Assembly: GCA_965235115.1 (NCBI GenBank)
Contig: OZ249436.1
Location: forward strand, 17,734,001 to 17,798,000
Length of the DNA: 64,000 nucleotides
Source: Laetmonice hystrix
Lineage: Eukaryota
Direction of reading: 5' to 3'
Both the position numbers and the translations under genes were made by a program. The notes under the pieces are model-generated. The model did not search any database. It was given only the letters and a program-made list of their open reading frames with translations, and was not told the origin of the DNA. Positions 511 to 62,900 of this stretch are shown piece by piece. Numbering within the stretch: the stretch's first letter is position 1; each line of letters starts with the position of its first letter.

Positions 511-1584
511 ACGGGAGACTTGCTTGCCAGGTTCAGCATATCAAGATCTATAGTTTCCGCACTATATTGGAATTTAGAGTCCAGAAAGTATTGTTGTGTA
601 ATTAATTAAGTATGGGGATAAACTTTCCAAATCAGGCCTTCCATGCAGGCCACTAGATAGCGCCCTCTCGCGGGTATACATGGTACCAGGTAACGATTGG
701 TGATTGGGCACCCGGTCATAAGATAGAACATGCCACTCCTTTCGTCTCTGTACAAAATACCGGGTCGGAGGGAAGGGGGGCTGCTTGATAGACAGCCCCC
801 GTCCTCCCCGCGGGAAAGGCCAATCGAAGACAACTGGGCTGTATTGAACGTTGTCCAATCGTCACCTCAGAAGTCAAAATAGGGAAATCATCGGGAAGAA
901 ATAGTTGCTGGGCCCAGGGCAGGTCGGTCGTGATGGGTCGGGTGGTACTGAAATTGATGGGGTACGAACTGCCCACCCCCAGATACGGCGTCTCTCAGTC
1001 GGCTCACTGTACCGTCGTCCTTGTGGCTGGCGTCCCGGGTCTGGTCACAGATGACCGTGGCTGTTCGTTCATACGAAACAAAAATATATAAATAGGTTAA
1101 CTAATGGGAAACTTAATGTTTCGCTAAAAGTTCGAAACGGGCGTAAAACTAAGAGCTATAGCAGGCAGTCAGGCAATTCCCATTGCGTTCCCCTCCTGAC
1201 TGTACTGCAATGTCGGGAGTTGGGTATCACTTGTTAGATTGTGTTGTATAGCACTGAAACTTAACGTATAACTAGCCTCGAGTTTTATATTTCAAACAAG
1301 AGTTTCAGTTTGTGAGATCTGAACCCATTAGAGGAAGTAGAAATATGTGGATGGTGCCGGGGGAGTCAGGGAGGGGGAAGACACTAGGCCTATATCGGCG
1401 AGCAGGGGCGGGGGGGGGGAGACACTAGGCCTATATCGGCGAGCAGGGGGGGGGGGGGGAGACCAACACGCTTACAGAAAATGTACCTTCCTCATTATAC
1501 ATGCGTCTTGATGAGCTGGAGCATGGAATGATTCAATCGCCGAGAGTTTATTGATTTCCATCATTTCCTGCTCACTGACCTCGA

Positions 1585-3086: not shown

Positions 3087-5573
3087 CAGGACACAGGCGC
3101 TTGATGAGGCGTCCCTGATCGGGTGAAGATGAACAGCTGCATGGCGGGAGATGGCTTTCTTCTCATCTCAGCCAAGGTGAAGGTCAGTAGGCTCACACAG
3201 GGGCGGCACTGACGTTATGCAAATGTGTGTCTGCAGCAATCGTGCCAAACCTAGTATGATTGGATGATAATCTCAAGATGGAGCCATGATGTAGTACCTT
3301 TTTATCCGTGGACGTGGAGGTGATGGCATGATACTCTCAAGTCGTGACACAGCAAGTGTAATACAGGTGCTTACAATAGATGACCCTTGACCTGGCCGTG
3401 AAGGTCATTGTAGCAGGAAAGATCACGGGATTTAACCAAAGCCTATCGACACGACATTCTACATGCTTTAGATCCGGAAAATGATCTTATCAAAAATAAT
3501 GAATCAAATTCTTCAACGCATTCTCAATATCGTCTCTGCTTTTTTAATCATATTTCTAATTCCCTTTCAGCGTTCTAATCTTCCAATAGGAGATAACAGA
3601 CCCATAGATTGCCATATTCGGAGTCTGGGCCGGGCAGCCTGCTCCTGGGTCTTATCGGAGGTGGTGCCAGAATTGCCTCCTCTTTCTGTACGTCATTTGG
3701 CTGAGAGCTTTGGCCAATGTCCCAGCAATTTGTGCCCTGCTGTGGGCCGGTCTTGATAACATCACTGATATTAGCCCATCATAAATCATATCGTCGGATA
3801 CGCCAGAGCCGAACCCGAGTCGGACTTGTAGGGGCCCGGACCGCCGCCGGCTGCAGATCCGTGGAACAATTTTAGCCTGGCCAATTCAGATTAATGAGTC
3901 GAGATAATAATATGCACACAGAACCATATTCTCCAGCTAATCCCGGAAATCAATGACACACGTTGAGTCATCTTGCAGTAACTTTGAGGGAGAACAAAAA
4001 TCATTTGTAATTTCGTAAACTATCGTCTCCAGGCTGGACTCGTTGGCCGCTGAGATGTCAATGTTTTCACGCAGCGTCAATAGCGCATGGTTGCCGGAAG
4101 TAATTCTGCCAATTGGATTCACTCCTTTTTTTTAACAATAACGGTATTCATCGTTTGGTACAGGGCGTGCCAGGCAGGGTGGGTTGACGTCGGCAAAGCC
4201 CTAATAATTGTAATCCTTAATTGTATATTTTAATCTGTATGGGGGTATATGAGATAAATTTATGGACAATTCAATATATCCGAGAAGAATACCCATTGGC
4301 ACTGAAGGCGTGGGGGGGGGGGGGGGGGGGAGGGGGGGGGGGGCTTGGCCCCCGGACCAACTTTTTGTGGATTTATTACATTACATTGGTATCACATTTC
4401 GGGAGGGAGAGGGCTGTTGATTTTTAATTGCAATCCCCTTCGAAAATCCTCGGTCCGTCCCTACACCCTAAGATAGAATTGGCGTCGAGAGTAATTTGAC
4501 GTAGTTTTAGCTTCGTGGTTGGTTGATTGAGGCAGGAATGTGAATATGTTGACCTCCACGGGATGTCACCATCACACAGCTGCTTCGCCTACACTGTCCG
4601 GCCGGTGTCTCAGTAAATATGAAGGAAAGGCGATTTGTCACTTCCGGTTTGGGGTCTAAGATCGGGATCATAATAGGACCTATAAGAAAAGCAAGCCTTA
4701 TTAAAATAAAGTAACATTTGCTCATCAATGTCCCTAATTAGTATCTCTTATATACTATCTGATAAACCAGTCTGTGTCCACAGCGCCACTCGCAGTCAGA
4801 CAAGGACAATTTTCCGTTCATACACGGGGCTGTTACAAGAACTGTACACATGTAGGCCTACATGTAGCGCTCCACCGATTATCTTTGAATGAGTCATCGA
4901 AATTCTACAACGATTATTCTAACGTTATACACTGCCACGCATTTTTCCTATCGGCTTCGTGTAGTATGACTAGTATAATTTTATATTTATCATTTGACCT
5001 TTCCAACAATAATGAATAGATTAATCTGACCGCGAAAGCACTTAGATCGCCATGGTAACTGAGCATCGTAGGCATTCCATAATACAGTACTTGGCAGTTT
5101 CCGTCCGGGAAGCCTCGTTTTATGATATCGGATTATCGGCCAATTACAACCGCTGACAGAGACACCTTGTGGTGACTTCAAACACACGAGCGTGACGTCT
5201 TCAATGTACGTGATATACGGCCGGGCACGCGCAAGGAGGCGTAGGGTTGTGATGGCTTCCGGTGCGGGCCGCGCGTCTGATCGAGACGCTGACCCGCATG
5301 TGTTTCCGGTGGCGGGGCCTCCCGGCCGAGGTTGGCATTGGCTGGGAGTAACTAACGGAATTCTAGGAGTTCTAGGAATATCAGGTTGGGTAGGACGGAG
5401 GTGGTGTTTTATCGGCAGGGGGTGGGGAACACTGATACGACGGCTGTAGACGCGGGACTCCGAGGGCTGAGGTGGGTGAGGTGGGGGTTCTGGGTGTCAG
5501 TTGGTATATTGTTGGATTGTAAATTACTTTGAACCATGATAAACTAAACTGGAACCTGCTTCTAATTCATAAA

Positions 5574-5782: not shown

Positions 5783-7097
5783 AATTACCCAGCGTTTTCA
5801 AGAAACTTATAGGACAAACTTTATTGGTTTTTATTTCGGTGCGGATTGCGGAGTACTCATCGCCATCGTGGATGAAGATGGTCTCTGGTAGAGCCTGTAA
5901 AATATCAACCTGTCAACTTTTGGTGATATGAGTAGGTGTGACCAGGATGGATACATGTCAATGTTGACATCTCGATATGTAAAGCACCCGCGGCCACCAT
6001 TCTGTTTGTTGGTCGATACCAGGCGGAACTGAGTCATTATAAAACTAGCCATATTTCATCGCGCTGTTATGGCAACACACGTTTCTATTAGCAGGGCGAA
6101 TATGACGTCCAATCCACTAAGCCATGCATGCAACTTCTACCGGAAGGTACTATTCGCTTTTCTTGAGCGGCGCCATCTTACCGTTGCGGGGTGTTAATAT
6201 TTTCTCGATTGTGATTGGTCGAATAAATGTCAATTAGTCTAATTGGAAACTCGCGAACAAGGTTGCACAGGCCTAGCAAAAAGACCAATGATTAGGCCTA
6301 CCAGATGTACACGCTGCGAGCTCCGATATGTCCCTGACATTTTACATGTCACAGTATTATATATTATTGTGTACTATTTTCTACTTCAAAAACATCCGTG
6401 GAATTTGAAATACCACAAGCTATCGATATAGGCTACCGGTATCCTAACCATCCTCCTTAATTTAGACAGATCGGCACCTCGTGGCAAGGCAGCCGTTCAG
6501 CTCGTCTCAAGTCGACTCTAAGTTTAGGTCGACACTTGCCACGGATAATGTGAACCGGCCTGGTTTTGAGAAGAGAGCGATAATAGACCGACCACCTCAG
6601 ATCGGCCGTCTGATCCGGTGAGGTGCATGCCGGGAATGTGGTCAGAAGGCCGTCTGTCGGTGGTATCGGCTCGCCGCCGCCAGGGGGCCTGGTGTGATGG
6701 CAGGTGGGCTGAGAGAAGATCACGTGGTCATCATGAGTTATGACGACACGTCAGGTGTACACATGTAACCGGCGACCGTCGAAAGACGCCTGCCACCACC
6801 TGGTGTAATATCTCATCGCTAGGTGGCGCCTTGAAATCCAGGCCATTCCAACCCCGACATCGAGTCGTGAGTTACTTCCAGCTCGGCCACAACCAAAGTA
6901 TCACACGTTTCCGGTTCTCTTAGCCTGACTAAAAATATGACTGTGGTTGTCAACCAAGTCAGTCACCTACATACTGTCATACTTGTCTTCTCACAAACTT
7001 GGAGCTGGAACAACTATCCTGGGAAATGAATGCATAGAACCTATTTATCATACCTTATTTATCGTTCAATCTCTTATCGAAAATATTTTTTAAAGAT

Positions 7098-26770: not shown

Positions 26771-26951
26771 AGGTAGCTAGTTATGGAATACCGGTGACGA
26801 AATTCGACTTTCACTTCAACTTACACATACACTTGCACTTCAACTTTCACTTTCACTTCAACTTAGACAAACACTTGCACTTCAACTTTCACTTACACTT
26901 CGGTTTCATCTTTCACTTGCACTTTTACTTAGCCCTTCATCATGTGACTTC

Positions 26952-27060
26952 GGGCCGTATTTTAGAACTATCCTTAAGTTAAAGGATCTCCTTTAGTCTA
27001 TTGCAATTCAATAGACAAAAGGAAATCCTTTGCCTTATGGATGGTTCTAAAATACGGCCC
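26952..27060. mobile_element. 109-bp hairpin MITE (Harbinger/Tourist-type), copy in left arm
   Basis: TIR GGGCCGTATTTTAGAAC...GTTCTAAAATACGGCCC; 3-bp TSD TTC on both sides. Confidence 0.8.
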
Positions 27061-27260
27061 TTCGACTTCGGCATTTACGGAAATGGCCGAGGGCTTCCGA
27101 TGTATTTCTTGCACGCATGCGTACAATATTAAAAGGACAGTTTTGTGACCTAAACTGTCCTTTTAATATTGTACGCATGCGTGCAAGAAATACATCGGAA
27201 GCCCTCGGCCATTTCCGTAAATGCCGAAGTCGAAGGGCCGTATTTTAGAACCATCCTTAA

Positions 27261-29056
27261 GGAGGTATGATCGTCAGAAATGAAAGTATTGCAAAACCTC
27301 TGAAAAGCTTCCTAATTCAACTACTCTAATAGGATAGTCGAAATATGGAAAAAAATATATGTGTCACCATCCTAATTTGGTTTCCATGGCAACATTTATA
27401 TATTCAGGAGTGTAAAAAATGGCAAAATATACATATTTTCGACTTTTCTCATTTCGACACCCAAATATATTTTATTTACATGTTTCTTCTGTCACAAAGT
27501 CATCTAGACACATCAAACTTTAAGACAATATCGATTTGGAGTAGTTTCTACCTGTTTTTATATTTTTCTTGGACCTTTTAAAATTTAAAAATATTAAAAA
27601 ATACGTATTTGTTATGTTAATTTTACATTTTAACAATGTTCTCATATTGTAATATCCCCTATTTTCTTCCTGTGTATAGCCAGGGCTATATTTAAGCAGA
27701 TCGTGAAAAAAAATCACATGGCTACCATGCTAATTTTTGGTATATCACCCTTTTATGTACACACTACCGGGTACCCAAAACAGTAAATTTGGCTCGACTC
27801 TTAATTTATGTATGTAGAGTATTCATTATTTCTTTGAGAGAGCGTTCCAAATGACATATCAAATCAAAGTGAAACGTCTTCCAGTGATTTATAAGCAATT
27901 CCAGTGACGAATAGGCCTATAACTTAGTTAAAAAAAGGTAAAAATATTAAAAATTACAAAATATTTTTAAAATATTAAAAAATGCGATCAGATTTTAATT
28001 TCAGGAGGGATGAGCATCAAAAATATTGTCAAACTTCTAGAAAAAGCTTCCTAAGTTAAGAACTCCAATAATAGAGTCGAAATAAACAAGCATACAACAT
28101 AAGAAATTCTGGACAACGTAGGTGGGGTGTAGGCAGGGCTGTAACCTGCCAAGTGGCCGGGGGGGGGGGCCGGGGGGGGGGGGGGGTTACAAAGTCTTCG
28201 ACCGCATTCGGCACCCTTTGTGTGGCTCCAATAAAGGTCAGATAGGCCTATATAAAAAAAAGTCTATAATTTATTTTTAAGGCTGGGCCCAAGGAGGGTT
28301 ACAGACACCCTGCATTCGGCACCCTTTGTGTGGCTCCAATAAAGGTTAGATAGGCCTATATAAAAAAAAGTCTATAATTTATTTTTAAGGCTGGGCCCAA
28401 GGAGGGTTACAGACACCCTGTAACCACCCCCCCCCCCCGCCTTGGTAGGCCCTCCAGAAGGTCGCCCTATATCTCCCGCCCTCCGAGGCAGAGTGGGAGC
28501 AGAGCGGAGCGGAGGCCGCCACCCGCCCGGCCAGTTGGCCGGTCCTCCCGCTGAGCACCTCCCTGCCTGACACCGTTCCCCCTGACACTCGTGAGTCAGC
28601 CGCGTGTTCCCTCTCGATCGCGTTGTCGTAATCGGATTCAATGCACACTTATGACAAGTTGTATTTGTATATATACCTATAGGCCTATAGTGCATAAAAT
28701 GGCGTTTAAGAGAGAGTGGTGTTCAAATAATGTGATAATCTTCTAATTTTATGGATTTTGCAACCAGTCTTACATGCACTGTCGTAAACTAGCTGTCCGA
28801 ACTGACTGACGGTGCGCAAACATTGCGCAGTGGCCCAAACTACGTGACGATCATACCTCGAAATGAGAAATGTCGAAAATATGTATATTTTGCCATTTTT
28901 TACACTCCTGAATATATAAATGTTGCCATGGAAACCAAATTAGGATGGTGACACATATATTTTTTTCCATATTTCGACTATCCTATTAGAGTAGTTGAAT
29001 TAGGAAGCTTTTCAGAGGTTTTGCAATTTACTTTCATTTCTGACGATCATACCTCC
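27261..29056. mobile_element. Non-autonomous Kolobok-like DNA transposon (1.8 kb)
   Basis: TTAA TSD (27257-27260, 29057-29060). GG...CC termini (RR..YY is Kolobok-type rather than piggyBac). Near-perfect inverted repeats of about 197 bp (27261-27457 / 28858-29056). AT-rich interior with no transposase ORF. Confidence 0.85.
28204..28420. repeat. About 108-bp tandem duplication inside the Kolobok-like element
   Basis: GCATTCGGCACCCTTTGTGTGG...GTTACAGACACCCT x2. Confidence 0.85.
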
Positions 29057-29161
29057 TTAAGGCAAAGGATTTCCTTTTGTCTATTGAATTGCAATAGACT
29101 AAAGGAAATCCTTTAACTTAAGGATAGTTCTAAAATACGGCCCGAAGTCACATGATGAAGG

Positions 29162-29327
29162 CAGGGCCGTAGCCTGGCCCAAATGCGAGGGGGGGGGGGC
29201 AGTAGGCCTGCCAAGTAATAGCGCGTCATTGCGCCGGTCGAGCTGGCCCGGGGTGTGGGTTAAAAAACACAAAAAACTGGAAATCCCAGGGGGGGCAGCT
29301 GCCCCCCCCCCGGAGGCTACGGCCCTG
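29162..29327. mobile_element. 166-bp MITE with CAG termini and 5-bp TSD
   Basis: 14-bp TIR CAGGGCCGTAGCCT / AGGCTACGGCCCTG; TSD GAAGG. The empty site GATGAAGGGCTAAG is preserved in the opposite arm of the host element. Confidence 0.88.
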
Positions 29328-30169
29328 GAAGGGCTAAGTGAAAGTGCAAGTGAAAGGTAAAACCGAAGACAGCGAAGTGTAAGTGAAAGTTGAAGTGCAG
29401 GTGTAGACCTATGTCTAAGTTGAAGTGAAAGTGAAAGTTGAAGTGCAAGTGTATGTGTAAGTTGAAGTGAAAGTCGAATTTCGTCACCGGTATTCCATAG
29501 CTAGTAGATGATACGGAAAAGCACGCATGCTCGTACTCTGGAGACTACGACCCTGCTGGTTAGGAATTGTGGGAAGTCAAATCGACTTGTGCAATCGTAT
29601 CTGAATAGTTCAGCAAAGTAGGTTGCATTTGAACTGTTTCAACTCAAATTTAAATCTTTAAATCTGCCGGCCATGGCAGATGTCCCTATAGTGTCACACG
29701 CCATTAAAGATATTGAGCAGCAGGTATTAATGTGGTATTTTATGTGGGGTACACATCAATAAATAAAATAACAAGAAAATGAAAACTTGTCAGCCGAGCC
29801 CTGTATCCTAACTGTCCCTAATAGAGAGGTTAAACTGTATGACTGGGTTAGACGAACTGTACGAATCCTCTCTCACATACACCGGGGGGTTCCCCCGTCA
29901 GTCGCCTACTGAAAGCCAGAACGATATATTTTAGAGCTCCCATCGCTATGAGACATTCTAGGACTCCTCATCTTATTCGATGTACGGGCCAAGAAGGAAC
30001 AGATCGAGGGGCCCGTTTCACTAACGGTGACATCCCCGCGTGCCACTAAAATGTCCCTCCCCGGCCCATCCAGTGATGAGGGATTTGTCGCCAGGATGTC
30101 CCTAGAACGAGATTGTCGCCGCTCTGGAGCATCTCCCGTTAGTGAAATGGGCCCCTGTGACATAATCAG

Positions 30170-41791: not shown

Positions 41792-42282
41792 CCGATACGC
41801 ATCTTGTCTCCTTCTTCAAGAAGAGATAAATATTTTGGTCTCTCCTTCTTCAAGAAGAGAGTTTTCACCCAGCATGCCTAGTGGTGGGCGCAATAGGTGA
41901 AGAATTCCTTTTTCAAATAAAGGCCACCTTTACAACATGTCCATGCCCTGGTACGACGCAGTGGTTATTTTGCCGGCATTCTGGCAAAACCATAGACCTA
42001 CACTGAATATCTACGTCTATGGGCAAAATATTAGTAAGTAAACTAATTATCGACACGAAACAGATATATGTTTGGGTTAGGGTTAAAGTTAGGCCTAGGG
42101 TTAGTGTTAGTTTAGTCTCAAATTGGTTGTTAAAGCTAATTATAGATAACCCGCTATTTTGCTGAAAGCCATCATCCAATAGGAATCCAGTATTGCAGTC
42201 ACATGACTGGTGGGTCTCAATTGAAGAAGGAATTCTCCACCTAAGGTTCTCTTCTTGAAGAAGGGGGAAACATGCGTATCGG
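41792..42282. mobile_element. About 490-bp non-autonomous element with about 35-bp imperfect inverted repeats and an internal GGTTAG tract
   Basis: CCGATACGCATCTTGTCTCCTTCTTCAAGAAGAGA at 41792 versus TCTCTTCTTGAAGAAGGGGGAAACATGCGTATCGG ending 42282; telomere-like GGGTTAGGGTTA at about 42074-42112. Confidence 0.65.
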
Positions 42283-48179: not shown

Positions 48180-48620
48180 GATGGAGGGGTGGTTACTGGG
48201 GTGGTGGGTCTTTATGTGGTGGAGGGATGGTTACTGGACAGGGGGTATTTATGCGATAGAAGATGGTTACTGGGTGGATGGTGTTTATGTGATGGAGGAT
48301 GGTTAATTGGGTAGAGGGTATTTATGCGGTGGAGAAATGGTTACTGGTGTAGAGAGTATTTATGTTGTAGGCCTATAGAGGGATGGTTACTGGATATAGG
48401 GTATAAATGTGGTGGAGGATGGTTACTGGATAGAGCATTTCTGTGGTGGAGGATGGTTACTGGGTATAGGGTATTATGTGGTGGAGGATGGTTACTGGGT
48501 ATAGGGTATTTATGTGGTGGAGGATGGTTACTGGATAGAGGATATTTATGTGGTGGATGGTTACTGGATAGAGGGTATTTATGGGGTGGAGGGATGGTTA
48601 CTGGATTGAGGGTATCTATA
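48180..48620. repeat. Degenerate minisatellite, about 36-bp unit
   Basis: GGATGGTTACTGGATAGAGGGTATTTATGTGGTGGA-like units. Confidence 0.88.
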
Positions 48621-50512
48621 ATATTGGGTGGTATACTGGTGTCGATCAATGCGGTGGAGGAGCGGCCATGCAGTTGGTTAGAGGGGGTTTCTATAGGTTG
48701 GATGGGTGTTTAGTTCGCCTATAACCACTCAGACTTTGGTCATTACTTATTAAATAAACACCCGCCAGCCCACTCTACATTTAAAAGTGTTTACGCGCTT
48801 ACCTATATAGGCCTGAATGACCTGGCTGGAACCCGGCCTAAATGTAGACTACATCTCATACTTAGGCCTACTCCACTCCCTCTAGACTTATGTCCCGGCC
48901 AGGATACGCCTTAATATACTCCCACCCTCTCGTCTAGGGCCGTACCCAGCGGGGGGGGGGGGGGGCGCCCCCAGCACCCCCCAGCAGGTGCCCTTTTAAT
49001 GTTTCTCTAGGGCTTATTGCATGCATGCCTACACAGGCCTAGGCCATATAGGGTAGATCTATTTTTATTAAACCTGTGCCTTTTCTTTTATAGCCACTTT
49101 TCCTCCCATCACTGACACTCTCTAGACCCCCCCCCCCCCCCGGCCTTCCTGCTTTACCCCTCCCTCGTCTCACCCTTGATCAGGGTGAGATGGACGTGTA
49201 GGAAGGCCGGCCTGTCTATATGAAACTCGCTACTATCATTCGTGTTTTACGACCGGGTACCATGTTAAGTTAGTGTGTCCCATAGACGACAGATGGCGTA
49301 CGTGTATGAGGCTGGTGCTGTGGCCAACGGCTCACGGTGTGGACACGGACTGGTGTTCCAGAGATGCCTCCAGTGGCGGATCCAATGGGGGTTTGGGGGG
49401 TGGGGGGTCCCCCCCCCCGGCAAAATTGCGAACCCCCTTCATATTTCCCACGAAATTTGGTCTCCGACGGTTGCCCAGGACTGGTCAGCCCCCTCTATAT
49501 AACGGACCTAGCCTAAGAAGGTTAACAGGCGAGGCAGGGGTCTTAATTTTCATCGCCGTAGCGTAGGCCTAGATCTATTCTAGATTTATCTGTTGGACAT
49601 CAGGTCATTCAACAGATTGAAGACCAAATGACGTTGTTTAATCCACCCGGCCATTAGGCCCCCTATATCCGAGCCAAAGACTATAACCGTGAGAAAGATA
49701 ATTAGGCCTAGCCTAATCGTGGATGTGGGTAGGCCATAGTAGGCCTAAACATCGAACCCTAGATAGGCCTAACATTTTCAGACCTAGAGCTGGGGGGGGG
49801 GGGGTGTCGGGGGTTGAGCCTCCTGCTCAGAACCCTCTCTCTAAAGTCTCTTTTTATTAGGCCTAGGCCTAGGCCTATAGGCAAAGCCTAATCTTGATGC
49901 ACGCCTGAACAGGGCTGATGTGGGGCTTTGACTGCCACGTGCGTCGCCCCCCCCCCCCTTGCCCCTGCAAAAATCCCGCACACGCGCCTGCATGGGATTC
50001 ACGAGGGCTAGAGTCGAGGTCTATACTCTACCCTCGGTCCTCCAGATGCGGACCCAAATGACAGAAAATAGAACATTAAAAAAAGAAAGAAACCCCCAAA
50101 AAACAACAAACAAAAACTGTCCTTGCCTTGGACACAACGATCTGATCAAGAGATCAGTTTGCTCGAGCTATTGGTTTGCATTACGGCCAGCCGAGCGCCA
50201 GTCATAACAAAGCTATGTTCTATTTATAGTACATTGAAATCAATCGCCCATGTGAATCGGCACGCTGTCAGGGCTGCATTTCGATGTCTGGCTCGATCGT
50301 GAATATATCCAGCTACCTAGGTTTAGTCTGGTTATCGACCTAATACAACATTGCTGGATTATCTCTGTGGGTCAGGAAGCTTGTGGTTACCGACGAAATG
50401 TGGAGAAATACAGCGACGGTGTGATCAGACGAATAGACGCCCTGTGTGTGCGTCTGTTTAGGTTTTTGAATTCATGCCTTTGGTCGCGCACCTGTCTGTC
50501 TCTTGTGTTTGA

Positions 50513-50761: not shown

Positions 50762-51002
50762 ATGCCAGCTAGTCTGCTCGAGGATATGAACTCGCACAGT
50801 GGGGGTCTAGAGGACCAGCGAGCGCTGCAGATAGCCCTGGAACTCTCGATGCTGGGGTTAAATCCAGAGGAGGAAGGCAGCTCTCCGCCCGCCCTAAATC
50901 CAAGCTTTGAAGATGGCCACAAACTGAAGAGGAGTGCAAATATGACGGAATGTGTTCCAGTGCCGAGTTCGGAACATGTAGCCGAGATCGTGGGAAGACA
51001 AG
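50762..51002 (+). CDS. mex3: mex3 coding exon 1 (N-terminus with leucine-rich NES-like segment and start of KH domain 1)
   Basis: ATG at 50762 opens [10 protein letters not shown]...[16 protein letters not shown]...[22 protein letters not shown]. The [20 protein letters not shown] motif is the hallmark start of MEX3 KH1. Donor CAAG|GTGGGT at 51002/51003 (phase 1). Confidence 0.95.
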
Positions 51003-51240
51003 GTGGGTGTTGTTAGTGTAAGCATTTCCGCAGAGCTGTCAGTGGCGTATTCCTACTCGACACTACGGCGCAGTTGGATTTCAAAATGGTGGGGATGTTG
51101 GGTTAACCAACGTTAGGCACTTGTCAAAACGTCAAACGCATTTCTTGCAAAATATTCAGATTGCTCACCGCAATAGATGCAATTCTTAGACTAGCCTATG
51201 TGCCATGCAGTGTCCTGATATAATGGTTTTGATGTTGCAG
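51003..51240 (+). other. mex3 intron (238 bp, GT-AG, phase 1)
   Basis: GTGGGT start and TTGCAG end; removal joins the two halves of KH1 in frame at GRQG|CKIK. Confidence 0.93.
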
Positions 51241-52742
51241 GGTGTAAAATCAAGGCATTGAGGGCGAAAACCAACACGTACATCAAGACGCCCGTACGAG
51301 GCGAAGAGCCGGTGTTTGTTGTGACGGGGCGTAAAGAAGACGTGGGGGCCGCCAAACGGGAGATTCTGTCGGCCGCCGAGCATTTCAGCCAGATACGGGC
51401 CAGTCGCCGTAATAACAACACCAACGGGTCTGCTGGTTCGCTAGCCCCCGGCCCGCCTAGCCCCAACGCCCCGGGCCAGGTGACCATTCAGGTGCGGGTA
51501 CCGTACCGCGTGGTCGGGCTGGTTGTCGGTCCCAAGGGCGCCACAATCAAACGAATCCAACAACAGACGCGCACCTACATCGTGACACCGAGTCGGGACA
51601 AGGAGCCTGTGTTTGAAGTTACGGGCACGCCGGAAAATGTGGAGAAGGCACGTCAAGAAATTGAAAGTCACATTGCGTTGCGGACAGGGGGCATGGTGGA
51701 GGCCAACAATGGGATGGCCGGGGGGTCAGTGCCCCCTACCCCCGGACCGCACACCCCAGCGGATGACGACTTTCACAATAATGGGGTGGAGTCTGGGTTT
51801 CACGATTTAAGCAACGACATGATGGCATCAATGTACAAGCCTCCAAGTTCTAACTCCGCCTTTACCTCCTATAACAGTGCACTCAACACAAGCAATAACC
51901 TATTGTCTCACGCACACCATGGAAACCACCACAATCGTACACAGCATGCAGACAGCCACACCCCAAATATCTTCAACTTCCCAGCCATAGCACCCAATGC
52001 CAATACAAATGGATCAGCCAAAATCTCAGACTATGCGCCAACACTCACTAATGGCTTCAGCAATGGCTTCGGATTGTACGACAACGATGAAGGTATCGCC
52101 TCGCCAAGTTTTGATGCCGGTCACATGTCTGTATGGCAGGATATGGGTTCGGGTGACCATTGCAAGATGGGAAATGGCAGTCAAATTTTGTTTAATCCAG
52201 CTCACTCCAGTGTGGTGGCCACGTCTGGTGGTTGTGCTCCACGACGATGCAGCAGCATCAGTAGCAGTACCACGCCCAGGTTGTCGCCAACTCTCACTGA
52301 TTCCTCTAGCAATGCTCCGGTAGGTTCCCCGGGCAGCGGGGCGGTCACTCCTGGAAGTGACCATTCAACAGTACGTCGCATTAGGAGTGATCCCCTGTCC
52401 GGCGGACTTTCAGCAATGACCTTTGCACCCCTTTCGAATGGTGTACTGGGAAACAACCCTGGCTCTGCGTTTACCATCACTACTACCTCGAGTGGCAGTC
52501 TCTCTAGCAGCAACAACAGTACTTCCAGTAGTCCGACCGACTCAACCGGATCTGCGAACGCCAACCGAAGACGGCATTGCCTGATGTGCAACGACAGTGG
52601 CGTGGTGGCAGCTCTGGTACCCTGTGGCCACAACTTGTTCTGTATGGATTGTGCCAATCTGATTGTGGACAAGCCTGAAGCTGACCGCCGCTGCCCTGTC
52701 TGCCAGCAAACCCCGACTCAGGCAATCCGTATATTTTCTTAA
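51241..52742 (+). CDS. mex3: mex3 coding exon 2 (rest of KH1, KH2, low-complexity linker, C-terminal C3HC4 RING)
   Basis: Acceptor GTTGCAG| at 51240. Splicing restores G-C-K-I-K-A-L-R-A-K-T-N-T-Y-I-K-T-P. KH2 reads VTIQVRVPYRVVGLVVGPKGATIKRIQQ; RING reads CLMC...PCGHNLFCMDC...CPVC; stop TAA at 52740-52742. Spliced CDS is 1743 nt, 580 aa. Confidence 0.97.
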
Positions 52743-59926: not shown

Positions 59927-62900
59927 CGATGGATGATTCATGGTCCCTCACCCACAGGGCGGCCACAGACCTAGCCCCCCCCCCCACACACACACACACC
60001 TGGCCCCAGACCTGCCCCCCTACCCACACTCGCCCCCCAGGGCCTGCCAGGTGTGCACAGGTAGGTTTTTTATGACTGATTGGCCATCATTTATAGATAG
60101 TCCATTCTGAGTCACACCTAGGAGAAAGTGGGTCAGCAGCCAGAAGTCGCAACACAGATAGTTCGGCTTGGTGGGGTAGGGTGGGAGAGGGGGTACACCT
60201 AGCCACCCCCAGCCTCTAGCTGTGCTCTTTCTCCGTCATAATCTTAAACATGGCAGAGCCAGGAAGCTGACTTCACATCTATTCTCTCCTCAACAAATAG
60301 TGGCATCCTCCAACTTATTTACACAACACACACTCCGCCACTGCCTCCCGCCTAGCCGTTCAATATTCACAGATCTATATATTTTTCACGGAGGGACGAG
60401 TTGAGACTCGGTTGGTAACAGCCCGTCAAGATTATTGCACGGGTGAAGTAGACCTACTGAAATCTACAGTAATAATTTGACAGGAGGGAATCCTTATTTT
60501 TGTATCTGAGAGTCATCATGAGGTAGGAGCAAATGTAGTCTTCCATGTGGAGTGTTGGGGTCTAATGGCGGGAGAGGGGTTAGATTGTGGTCACTGGTGG
60601 GGTTTGTTTTATAGCGTCCTTGGTTGGCATCCTTCACATATTGAGAGATGGTGGGTGGGGGTTGTGGAGGGGGGATGGGGATGTGTCCCGCTGTCGGTCT
60701 GGTCATGTGTGTGATCATGAGCAGCATTGTCCAGGGCTGGCAATGACTTGTATTCCTCATTGAATTACAGCACAAATAGAGGGGTAAGTTGACTGCACTC
60801 ACTGTCTAGTATAACGGGTTGGTTGTGTGCGGTGAGTGGGCCGATTGGTGGTGTGTCGAGGAGGTGGTAGTCGGTCGGTATTTGGTTCAGTTTGTATCGG
60901 TCTACCTACAATCTTTCGGTCAGTCCGGGCCCCAGAGAACGACAGATGGCCGTGGACGGTGTGTGAGCTAACAGATGGCGGGAAGGGCGCCACCTGTCGG
61001 TGTTAGGTGGAATTTGTCTAATTGTGGCGTCAGTTTGTGACGTCATATCTTGGTGGCGTCTCTGTCGACGTCAGTTTCCGCCGTTTGCAGTGACAAAGTC
61101 TCTCAATCTAGTAGGCCTATTTCGCTCATTGTGTATGAGCTCTGTAGCCCTAAGTAATGTTGTTACCATGGTTTCATGTTTTCACCCCACCCCCACCCTC
61201 GTCCTCTCAGCCTTGAGGTGCCGCCTGTACTGACTGTATGAAATGCTGATCCAACAAAACTGCACTATGTGTACAGTAATATGTATTGTATACATCAATG
61301 AAGTAAGCTCAGTATCTTACCCTGATAGCCATGCCGAGTTTATGCTGCCACTCTAGACAAATTTCCCTTTTAACCCCAAGACTTGATTCTATGCAAACTC
61401 TGAAACCATAGAAAAATAGAGGGTGGGAATGGGTGGCCCTGCGGCTGTGGGCCGCTCAGCTGGAAGGTGTGGGCCACGGCCCATCAGACAAACATATCGT
61501 TTTGTGTACACTCACAACACACAGACACCAAAACACACACACATCAACACACCAACACACATTAATGGGCCCCTATGGCTGCAGATAAGTTTGTATTGAC
61601 TTGTGCTACTTCAATTTGCGCGCAGTGTCATTAAATTTCCGTCTTTGGCATACCATGAAAATTGTTCATCACAAAGAACAAATAGAAAAAAAACCCCGTG
61701 AACTGGTGAACGTTTTGTATGTGAATCTAATTGTTGCCTTACATGTGCTATAATGATAGTAATATTATAATAACAGGATACCAGTTCTCTGCGTGGGTCG
61801 CCTCTGTCGGGAGATTCAGGTCATCGACGCCTCCTCTCTGCTGGAGAGTGTTCTGAGGAGGGGTCACGTGAGGGTTGGTGTGAGGGACACGGCCCCAGGT
61901 TAGGAACATCTCGAGTGGTCCGAACCTGGAGGGGGATAGAGACCCCCCCTGCCCGCCAGGATAGACAGGTGACTGACAGGTGTCAATGCTTTGTCACTGC
62001 CACTGGTCTTGATGAGATAAAACAAGATGGGCTCAAAATGACCGCAGTGTATTGGTATGTGTGTACTATGACGTCAGTCACTCCCCACCGGGCTGCGCAG
62101 CAGTCAATGTACCTAGAGAAATATATTATATATGACTTGTCGAGTTCAAACCAGAGAAATTCTTCACATTATTCATAGCATACACAGGTCTGCTTGAAAT
62201 GCTAAGAAGCGGTTCTGCCTAGCAGGTGAACGTGATTGCTCTAACTTTCATGTTATGTAATGTTTGACATGTTTGTTCTTTACATTCAGCCTAGAGTGCA
62301 TATCATATGTTTCTAATTTATGCTGTTGTGCTATCTGTATGTTCATAATTTGTCAGTGGAAATGACTTATTTATATTTGCCCCGAAAATGCGCTAAAATA
62401 AGGAATGACATCAAGACAATACTGTTCTTTGGCAGTGCATTATTTATTGATATTTTAGTGGTATACCTTCAATTGCCTGCATGAATTTAATATCAGTATG
62501 TGGAAAGAAATGTTGAGAAATAAGAAGATGGTAAATTTTTGGAAGTACCTCACTTGAAATGCGTAAAACCATGAGCATGGTGTTGTAGTGGTGAGTGAGG
62601 GTTGGTTGGGTGGCTGTGCACCATTTTAGTTTGTGTGACCTGTACGCATAGAGCATATTGAACCGTGGCTCAGTAAGGGAAGGTGTGGAGTAGGCTCACC
62701 TGCCCTTCACTGGGCCTCCTGGAACCTAGGTTGTCATGCCAACAAGGTCAGCTAGGTTTGTGTGAGAAATGCGCGTAGAATGCCGGCCATCGTGTGACCC
62801 GGGCCGTGCGTGTGATGACGAGTAGTGTTTGAATCGTGGCCCACCTGCTTCTTGTCGCCACACTCAGCAACACCTGTCTAAAACACGTGCACAGCGCGGT

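What the first reader, a model, noticed from the sequence alone, without database searches (positions are those of the whole stretch)
49564..49877. TAGGCCTA palindrome is strongly over-represented and behaves like a micro-insertion at TA sites
Seen: at least 19 exact TAGGCCTA by hand count (1385, 1426, 4853, 6293, 27912, 28243, 28351, 28680, 42090, 48368, 48863, 49564, 49703, 49740, 49764, a triple concatemer at 49858-49877, 61112), versus about 1 expected for a given 8-mer in 64 kb of uniform sequence. Two pairs come from local duplications. Seven lie within 320 bp about 0.9-1.2 kb upstream of mex3. Where an internal comparison exists the motif looks inserted: GTTAGGGTTAG becomes GTTA-GGCCTA-GGGTTAG at 42087-42103; one unit of the 36-bp array has an extra GGCCTATA at about 48370; and the fold-back right arm has extra GACCTA at 29404-29411. 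Inner-base variants TAGACCTA/TAGGTCTA (21000, 29404, 34639, 39069, 41993, 60449) and TAGATCTA (49054, 49570, 56839, 57099) also recur. Inference: TA+GGCC+TA is what a TA-targeting element with GG...CC ends would leave on excision, or the product of an unrecognised site-specific micro-insertion process. Concatemers would be repeated hits at a hot spot.
Basis: partly seen in the sequence, partly recalled or inferred. Interest (0 to 1): 0.8.

Follow-up and report, generated by a model that had tools for sequence, protein, structure and literature searches.

The report
GG-ended pogo transposon excision scars
The eight-letter palindrome TAGGCCTA, clustered upstream of the mex3 gene and present about 169,000 times in this animal genome, is in several compared repeat copies a six-base addition to a plain TA, and is likely the scar left when pogo-type jumping genes with GG ends, intact copies of which sit in the same genome, cut themselves out.

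Summary
Confirmed: 19 TAGGCCTA against 0.6-1 expected, and 168,757 genome-wide (85 against 3.5 in 364 kb of non-redundant sample). It is an indel at TA. Paralogous repeat copies show plain TA, and a contig from a run holding this locus lacks one GGCCTA unit and the TAGGCCCCCTA insert. I found the likely makers: about 18 families of pogo-superfamily (DD35/36D, Fot-like) transposons with TA duplications and GG or GA ends, some young and intact. Of 16 possible TA-XY-X'Y'-TA palindromes, only GG, CA, GA and CC are strongly enriched, and these match the end types of TA-targeting elements found here. Scars and elements share a purine/G preference before TA. Mixed concatemers are about as common as pure ones, which points to repeated hits rather than slippage. 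One intact element sits in a scar's TA. Not shown: one site both filled and scarred, or excision in an assay. Scars outnumber surviving elements at least 20-fold, and about 40% of sampled copies lie in repeats. Footprints are a known mechanism; I found no paper on this motif or scale. The scan noted this before, in this genome and in others.

The parts
49509..49877 (.). Scar hot spot upstream of mex3: 11 scar-like words (7 TAGGCCTA, 1 TAGATCTA, 1 TAGGCCCCCTA, 2 TAGCCTA)
   Evidence: Poisson p about 2e-12 for 7 in 314 bp at the genome density (chosen post hoc)
49564..49577 (.). Mixed concatemer TAGGCCTAGATCTA: a GG-type and a GA-type scar sharing one TA
   Evidence: the same word is common genome-wide
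49655..49665 (.). TAGGCCCCCTA (2+5 type), polymorphic: the other contig has plain TA
   Evidence: 9 bases left out at 49655 in run X1, record 1
49703..49715 (.). TAGGCCTA followed by TAGCCTA (2+2 and 2+1 types sharing a TA)
49740..49747 (.). TAGGCCTA
49764..49771 (.). TAGGCCTA
49858..49877 (.). Triple concatemer, polymorphic: the other contig has two units
   Evidence: 1+5 bases left out at 49857-49863 in X1; 129 such triples genome-wide against 0 in the control
48368..48377 (.). TAGGCCTATA in one unit of the 36-bp array (8 extra bases)
   Evidence: 1 of 12 units
48863..48870 (.). TAGGCCTA
49054..49061 (.). TAGATCTA (GA-type)
29404..29411 (.). TAGACCTA, 6 bases extra in the right fold-back arm
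42090..42097 (.). TAGGCCTA in a degenerate GGGTTA run
   Evidence: no clean empty homologue
1385..1433 (.). Two TAGGCCTA copied by a 41-bp tandem duplication (one event)
4853..4866 (.). Mixed concatemer of TAGGCCTA and TACATGTA (GG-type plus CA-type)
6293..6300 (.). TAGGCCTA
27912..28687 (.). Four TAGGCCTA inside the fold-back element (28243 and 28351 from one 108-bp duplication)
61112..61119 (.). TAGGCCTA
50762..52742 (+). mex3 (context only): exon 1 CDS 50762-51002, intron about 51003-51240, exon 2 to the stop at 52742; no scar word in the coding sequence
   Evidence: Pfam KH_1 (2 stretches) and zf-C3HC4_3; intron skipped in a contig of related organism B

Best explanation
TAGGCCTA is likely the end-joining scar left when a pogo-superfamily (Fot-like, DD35/36D) cut-and-paste transposon with GG...CC ends excises from its duplicated TA target. 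Shown: the word is a 6-base addition to TA in compared copies, and such elements exist here, duplicate TA and carry intact transposases. Inferred: the transposase cuts the non-transferred strand about 2 nt inside each end; the two GG overhangs cannot anneal and are filled in and joined, giving TA-GG-CC-TA. GA-, CC- and CA-ended families would leave TAGATCTA, TACCGGTA and TACATGTA the same way, and 2+1, 2+3 and 2+4 variants would come from shifted cuts or trimming. Scars are small and persist while elements move or decay, so about 100,000 independent scars have likely built up; repeats copied roughly 60,000 more. The cluster above mex3 is likely a repeatedly targeted hot spot.
For: (1) Indels: TAGGCCTA is the most recurrent 6-base indel core among homologous copies (7 of 134 indel families, next 2). 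TA-bounded inserts number 37 against 14 for the next dinucleotide. Contig X1 lacks two inserts in the hot spot. (2) Makers: 25 GG- or GA-ended elements (about 18 families) among 43 loci examined, 24 with TA on both sides. Single-TA empty paralogues were found for L222, L248, L250, L254, L257 and L270. L227 and L229 are 99.9% identical with 927/928-aa ORFs. [quoted passage not shown] (3) Spectrum: 4 of 16 palindromes are strongly enriched, GG 83/8.4, CA 50/16.4, GA 21/5.3, CC 12/3.3, and they match the end types found. The top three of 512 nine-mers are TAGACTCTA, TAGGCCCTA and TAGACCCTA. L243 has one GG and one GA end, which would give TAGACCTA. (4) Target bias: G before TA in 0.41 of scar sides and 25 of 48 element sides against 0.22 background; scars and elements do not differ (p 0.55). 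(5) 7 of 24 element sites have a scar within 150 bp against 9.6% background (p 0.006). GA-ended L235 sits in the first TA of a TAGGCCTA. (6) In the first 100 listed rows there are 31 pure against 27 GGCC/GATC mixed concatemer sites; independent hits predict 2.5:1 and slippage far more.
Against: No site was seen in both the filled and the scarred state. Surviving elements are few: a degenerate end pattern gives 2762 against 2100 control matches, and 500 kb held two decayed GG/GA non-autonomous relatives and two or three transposase fragments, so scars outnumber elements at least 20-fold. No such element or remnant was found in the window. Published cell assays of related elements give variable 0-4 bp footprints rather than one dominant form (PMC9976928, PMC7913693, passages). 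The 5-C insert at 49655 matches no end found (the longest is GGGG). TAGGACTA (18/5.8) and TAAGCCTA (17/5.1) are not explained by the ends found and may be decay. The loss of one unit from the triple could be slippage. Indel direction rests on which state is the minority, not on outgroups. The AWT-duplicating family L116-L145 also has scars near 5 of 30 sites, so part of the co-location may be generic open DNA.
Confidence: 0.85

Rival explanations
1. The same transposases make most scars by hit-and-run (insertion and rapid re-excision, or abortive integration), so most scars never marked a long-lived element.
For: Scar-to-element ratio of 20 or more; dense hot spots and concatemers several times above uniform targeting.
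Against: A rough budget needs no special process: 100,000 scars at 7-11% mean decay, with an assumed neutral rate of 0.5-1e-8 per site per year and about 1,000 mobile copies, implies about 1e-5 excisions per copy per year (inference; the rate is assumed).
Confidence: 0.07
2. A host repair activity adds GG to both TA ends of a break without any transposon (telomerase-like TTAGG(G) extension or non-templated G addition), giving TAGG plus CCTA.
For: TAGG is part of the telomere word (recalled); G-run variants exist (TAGGCCCTA 12/1.5, TAGGGGCCTA 4/0.5).
Against: It does not explain the parallel GA, CC and CA words or their match to element ends. TAGGGCCCTA was absent (0). It still needs an enzyme that cuts and duplicates TA.
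Confidence: 0.04
3. The word is a fixed part of one repeat, or a selected transcription-factor site.
For: About 40% of sampled copies lie in satellites or repeats. TACATGTA was read as a factor site in Phytophthora (PMC3520976, passages). The cluster lies above a promoter.
Against: 83 distinct contexts in 50 random loci; present as an indel in unrelated repeats, including inside other transposons; polymorphic at the mex3 cluster.
Confidence: 0.02
4. PIF/Harbinger-group elements (ISL2EU- or Pangu-like, AGG...CCT ends) or Zator-like elements (GGCC ends) are the makers.
For: They are abundant and young here and look like TA|GG...CC|TA at first sight.
Against: Empty sites show that they duplicate AT or AWT, and the Zator-like insert has a TTA duplication, so their scars would add 7-9 bases, not 6. 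Scars are T-poor and G-rich before TA. Harbinger-type elements generally excise precisely (PMC4561436, passages).
Confidence: 0.02

Closest known systems
Tc1 excision footprint TACATGTA of C. elegans (PMC3520976 passage) and Tc1/mariner/Stowaway NHEJ footprints (PMC2874221, PMC4561436 passages)
   Same: TA duplication kept on both sides, inner bases taken from the element's two ends; the CA-type word is enriched here too.
   Different: Inner bases are GG+CC. Tc1 footprints are described as rare, whereas here the word is the top dispersed 8-mer with about 100,000 independent copies and hot spots.
pogo superfamily, Fot/Fot-like family (PMC7386202 passages; oyster members of the Fot1 subfamily in PMC7325037 passage)
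   Same: [quoted passage not shown]
   Different: That survey lists Fot in fungi and Fot-like elements in protists and algae, nearly all DD35D. Here 13 of 21 intact triads are DD36D, the host is an animal, and L227 ends in a cysteine/histidine-rich, PHD-like tail (label recalled; no Pfam hit). Placement against reference Fot sequences was not tested.
Passer and ZB footprints (PMC9976928, PMC7913693 passages); Emigrant/Lemi1 natural footprints (PMC1636448 passage)
   Same: pogo or Tc1 elements leave 0-4 terminal bases at TA sites.
   Different: Assay footprints are variable and the natural cases are few; here one 2+2 product dominates genome-wide.

Membership tests
IS630-Tc1-mariner/pogo excision footprint | Addition to a single TA, with TA on both sides | tested here: met
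IS630-Tc1-mariner/pogo excision footprint | Inner bases equal the terminal bases of a resident TA-duplicating element | tested here: met
   GG, GA, CC and CA ends found; only these 4 of 16 palindromes strongly enriched
IS630-Tc1-mariner/pogo excision footprint | Same target preference as the element | tested here: met
   base before TA
IS630-Tc1-mariner/pogo excision footprint | The same site seen with the element and with the scar | tested here: inconclusive
   paralogues of element sites in 1.7 Mb were empty, none scarred in the rows shown; L235 sits inside an older scar
IS630-Tc1-mariner/pogo excision footprint | Produced by transposase-driven excision | not testable with these tools
   needs an excision assay
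pogo superfamily (candidate makers) | DDE_1 DDD transposase with pogo-type HTH, between TIRs, TA duplication | tested here: met
Fot/Fot-like family | DD35D spacing | tested here: inconclusive
   8 DD35D and 13 DD36D of 24 aligned GG/GA rows; 3 truncated or unaligned
Fot/Fot-like family | HTH_psq and/or HTH_Tnp_Tc5 binding domain | tested here: met
   3 of 5 GG/GA proteins scanned (L227, L210, L235); none detected in L234 or L239
Fot/Fot-like family | Groups with reference Fot/Fot-like transposases in a tree | not tested
   no reference sequences held; the own quick tree separates most GG/GA elements from Tigger-type ones with weak support (81), L238 falling outside
ISL2EU / Pangu / Zator as makers | Target duplication of TA alone | tested here: not met
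   AT, AWT and TTA duplications (group definitions in PMC4482050 passages; Zator label recalled)
hAT-type hairpin footprint | Palindrome copied from flanking DNA | tested here: not met
   empty sites have no GG next to the TA

The most novel reading that the evidence does not exclude
A little-described animal clade of GG/GA-ended pogo transposons leaves a near-stereotyped 2+2 scar so often that it writes the commonest dispersed 8-mer of the genome. The TA-XY-X'Y'-TA spectrum is then a family-resolved fossil record of excision, and its hot spots map germline-accessible DNA such as the region above mex3, which is being rewritten between haplotypes. The same logic would reinterpret TACATGTA-, TAGATCTA- and TAGGCCTA-type 'motifs' in other eukaryote genomes.
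Probability: 0.45. Interest if true: 0.7.

Novelty: new variant of a known kind. Interest (0 to 1): 0.52.

Why it matters
Cut-and-paste activity is normally inferred from surviving copies, which here would undercount past jumps at least 20-fold. A scar word per end type makes excision history countable. It warns that strongly enriched upstream palindromes may be scars rather than factor sites. It is also a recurrent source of small indels in regulatory DNA, and it points to young, intact transposases (L227 family) that can be assayed.

Tried and rejected
TIR scans of the first 560 kb found no convincing maker; two look-alike families proved to duplicate AT or AWT. DDE_3 hits gave CAG-ended Tc1 and DD82E elements, not GG ends. 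DDE_Tnp_4 loci were too short to show ends and were not followed. L237 and L245 first looked CC-ended, but their inverted repeats run on past the TA, so I dropped them as end evidence; they remain in the tree and in the CC row. The pattern was badly chosen and gave nothing. Local CpG observed/expected around scars did not differ from random TA (0.750 against 0.744, p 0.24). Clustering in random loci is only mild (8 close pairs against 3.8, p 0.03). The reversed control for the genome count (3,469) contains a CpG and flatters the ratio, so I rely on the Markov figure. No RNA holder was listed. Run X4 laid nothing, and only 12 of 67 indel rows were shown for the 9.5-kb lay. The careful tree did not finish. 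Literature searches: TAGGCCTA (283 papers, 40 listed, no relevant title); TACATGTA+footprint+transposon; GGCCTA+transposon+footprint (31 papers, 20 listed); TACATGTA+genome+oyster; excision footprints genome-wide (79 papers, 25 listed); pogo and Fot1 searches. None of the listings showed this motif described as a footprint. The library lacks most subscription journals and Repbase Reports; no supplements were read, and TIR logos in figures could not be seen.

Full report
Observation. The window holds 19 TAGGCCTA at the coordinates given, against 0.55-1.06 expected. Two pairs are tandem copies. The cluster at 49509-49877 holds 11 scar-like words and lies 0.9-1.2 kb above the ATG of a KH-KH-RING gene, mex3. 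The array unit at 48368 has 8 extra bases (1 of 12 units) and the fold-back arm has 6; the 42090 case has no clean comparison.

Genome-wide. G000 (627 Mb) holds 168,757 copies and 129 triples against 0 for the reversed control. In 50 evenly placed 10-kb loci it was the most enriched dispersed 8-mer, present in 37 of 50 loci after masking. Raw copies number 137 per 500 kb. After removing repeated copies, 85 remain in 364 kb against 3.5 expected. That extrapolates to about 100,000 independent sites and about 60,000 repeat-amplified copies.

It is an indel at TA. A contig of run X1 spanning 49430-49935 differs from the window by one substitution and five indel events. One removes the 9-base insert at 49655 and one removes a unit of the triple. 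X1 may be the other haplotype of the assembled sample; it is one contig from one study. Among homologous copies in 1.7 Mb of fetched DNA, TAGGCCTA is the most recurrent 6-base indel core (7 of 134; 10 when longer ambiguous readings are included), and TA-bounded inserts lead all dinucleotides (37 against 14). The other inserts include TAGCCTA, TAGGCCCTA, TAGGCCCCTA, TAGACTCTA, TAGACCTA, TACCCGGTA and TACATGTA. That sample is enriched for transposon loci and is not random. Empty sites have no GG beside the TA, which rules out flank-derived hairpin palindromes.

The makers. Families that looked like TA|GG...CC|TA in the first scan duplicate AT or AWT, and a Zator-like insert duplicates TTA. A DDE_1 search and 9-kb stretches around the weaker hits revealed 25 elements with GG or GA ends among 43 loci, in about 18 families: 13 GG, 4 GA and 1 mixed. 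Twenty-four have TA on both sides. Paralogous empty sites with one TA confirm the duplication for six GG- or GA-ended insertions. Five copies of the L227 family are 97-99.9% alike, two with 927/928-residue frames. [quoted passage not shown] Relatives occur in chiton, sea slug, aphid, crab, tunicate, Hydra, nemertean and scorpion records. CC-ended elements (L231, L247, L260, L029) and CA-ended Tigger-type and Tc1 elements also occur. I reuse its label; the elements and tests here are my own.

Linking scar to maker. Of 16 palindromes TA-XY-X'Y'-TA, GG (83/8.4), CA (50/16.4), GA (21/5.3) and CC (12/3.3) are enriched, and the other 12 reach at most 2.2-fold (p 0.02 or weaker). The top three of 512 nine-mers are the 2+3 products expected of GAG and GGG ends. 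Scars and GG/GA elements share a G-rich, C/T-poor base before TA. Seven of 24 element sites have a scar within 150 bp, against 9.6% background, 2 of 24 for the AT-duplicating family and 5 of 30 for the AWT family. GA-ended L235 occupies the first TA of a TAGGCCTA, so its excision would give the mixed word seen at 49564-49577, and L234 sits among five scars. Of the first 100 listed rows for double words, all from the start of contig 1, 31 sites are pure, 27 GGCC/GATC, 9 GGCC/GGTC and 2 GGCC/GACC. Slippage cannot make mixed words.

Mechanism. By analogy with Tc1/mariner and Stowaway (PMC2874221, PMC4561436, passages), the staggered cut leaves element-derived overhangs on the duplicated TAs. Two GG overhangs cannot pair, so fill-in and ligation would give TA-GG-CC-TA, the counterpart of Tc1's TACATGTA (PMC3520976, passage). 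These steps are inferred. Single-substitution neighbours suggest 7-11% mean decay. With an assumed mutation rate, the required excision rate is about 1e-5 per copy per year, which is ordinary.

Against. No site was seen both filled and scarred. Surviving elements are at least 20 times rarer than scars, and none lies in the window. Assayed relatives leave variable footprints (PMC9976928, PMC7913693, passages). TAGGACTA, TAAGCCTA and the 5-C insert fit no end found. No relation to CpG level was seen, and enrichment near promoters was not tested beyond this one locus.

Comparison and novelty. It works like a Tc1/pogo footprint and meets three of five defining features, with one inconclusive and one untestable. 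The makers belong to the pogo superfamily; Fot-like is likely but untested by tree (PMC7386202, PMC7325037, passages). Searches listed no description of this motif as a footprint; I saw listings for those and passages only for the papers cited. The scan noted the same thing in this genome at least eight times, mostly without finding the element, and in other genomes; those notes are not support. Verdict: real, a new variant of a known kind, interest 0.52, confidence 0.85.

Noticed in passing
L116-L145 (e.g. G000:C5:3000308-3001041): 734-bp non-autonomous family with AGG...CCT ends at C-AWT-G targets. The middle base of the 3-bp duplication differs between the two sides in 7 of 18 clean copies, which is odd for a true duplication.
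   Followed up: partly
L146-L170 (e.g. G000:C7:13009568-13009955): Young 386-bp MITE family (98% identical, 804 candidates) with an AT duplication, ISL2EU-like.
   Followed up: partly
L093-L106: Young DD82E elements (Sailor type, label recalled) with 490-aa frames and a TA duplication, and a young 1.7-kb DD34E Tc1 family at L086-L091.
   Followed up: partly
L062:705-1093: Short insert with GGCC ends, A/T runs and a TTA duplication (Zator-like, label recalled) inside a Harbinger-group transposase.
   Followed up: no
window 26777-29504: Nested fold-back structure with several long inverted arms and internal Harbinger-type MITEs; its outer ends resemble those around L237.
   Followed up: no
window 54531: A contig of run X3 carries a 10-base insert containing ACATGTA, a probable polymorphic CA-type scar.
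   Followed up: no
G000:C1:19565-90398; L034, L038, L040, L054: An 835-865-bp satellite in which some arrays carry one or two scars in every unit and others none; a major source of amplified copies.
   Followed up: partly
L227:2587-5370: The transposase contains a long, length-variable Pro/Ala/Ser-rich repeat between the catalytic domain and a Cys/His-rich tail; family members range from 637 to 928 aa.
   Followed up: no
window 49430-49935: Five indel events but only one substitution between the window and the X1 contig.
   Followed up: partly
G000:C12:27.56-27.93 Mb and C1:26.03-26.10 Mb: Tandem arrays of Harbinger-group transposase genes with about 13-kb and 7-kb periods.
   Followed up: no
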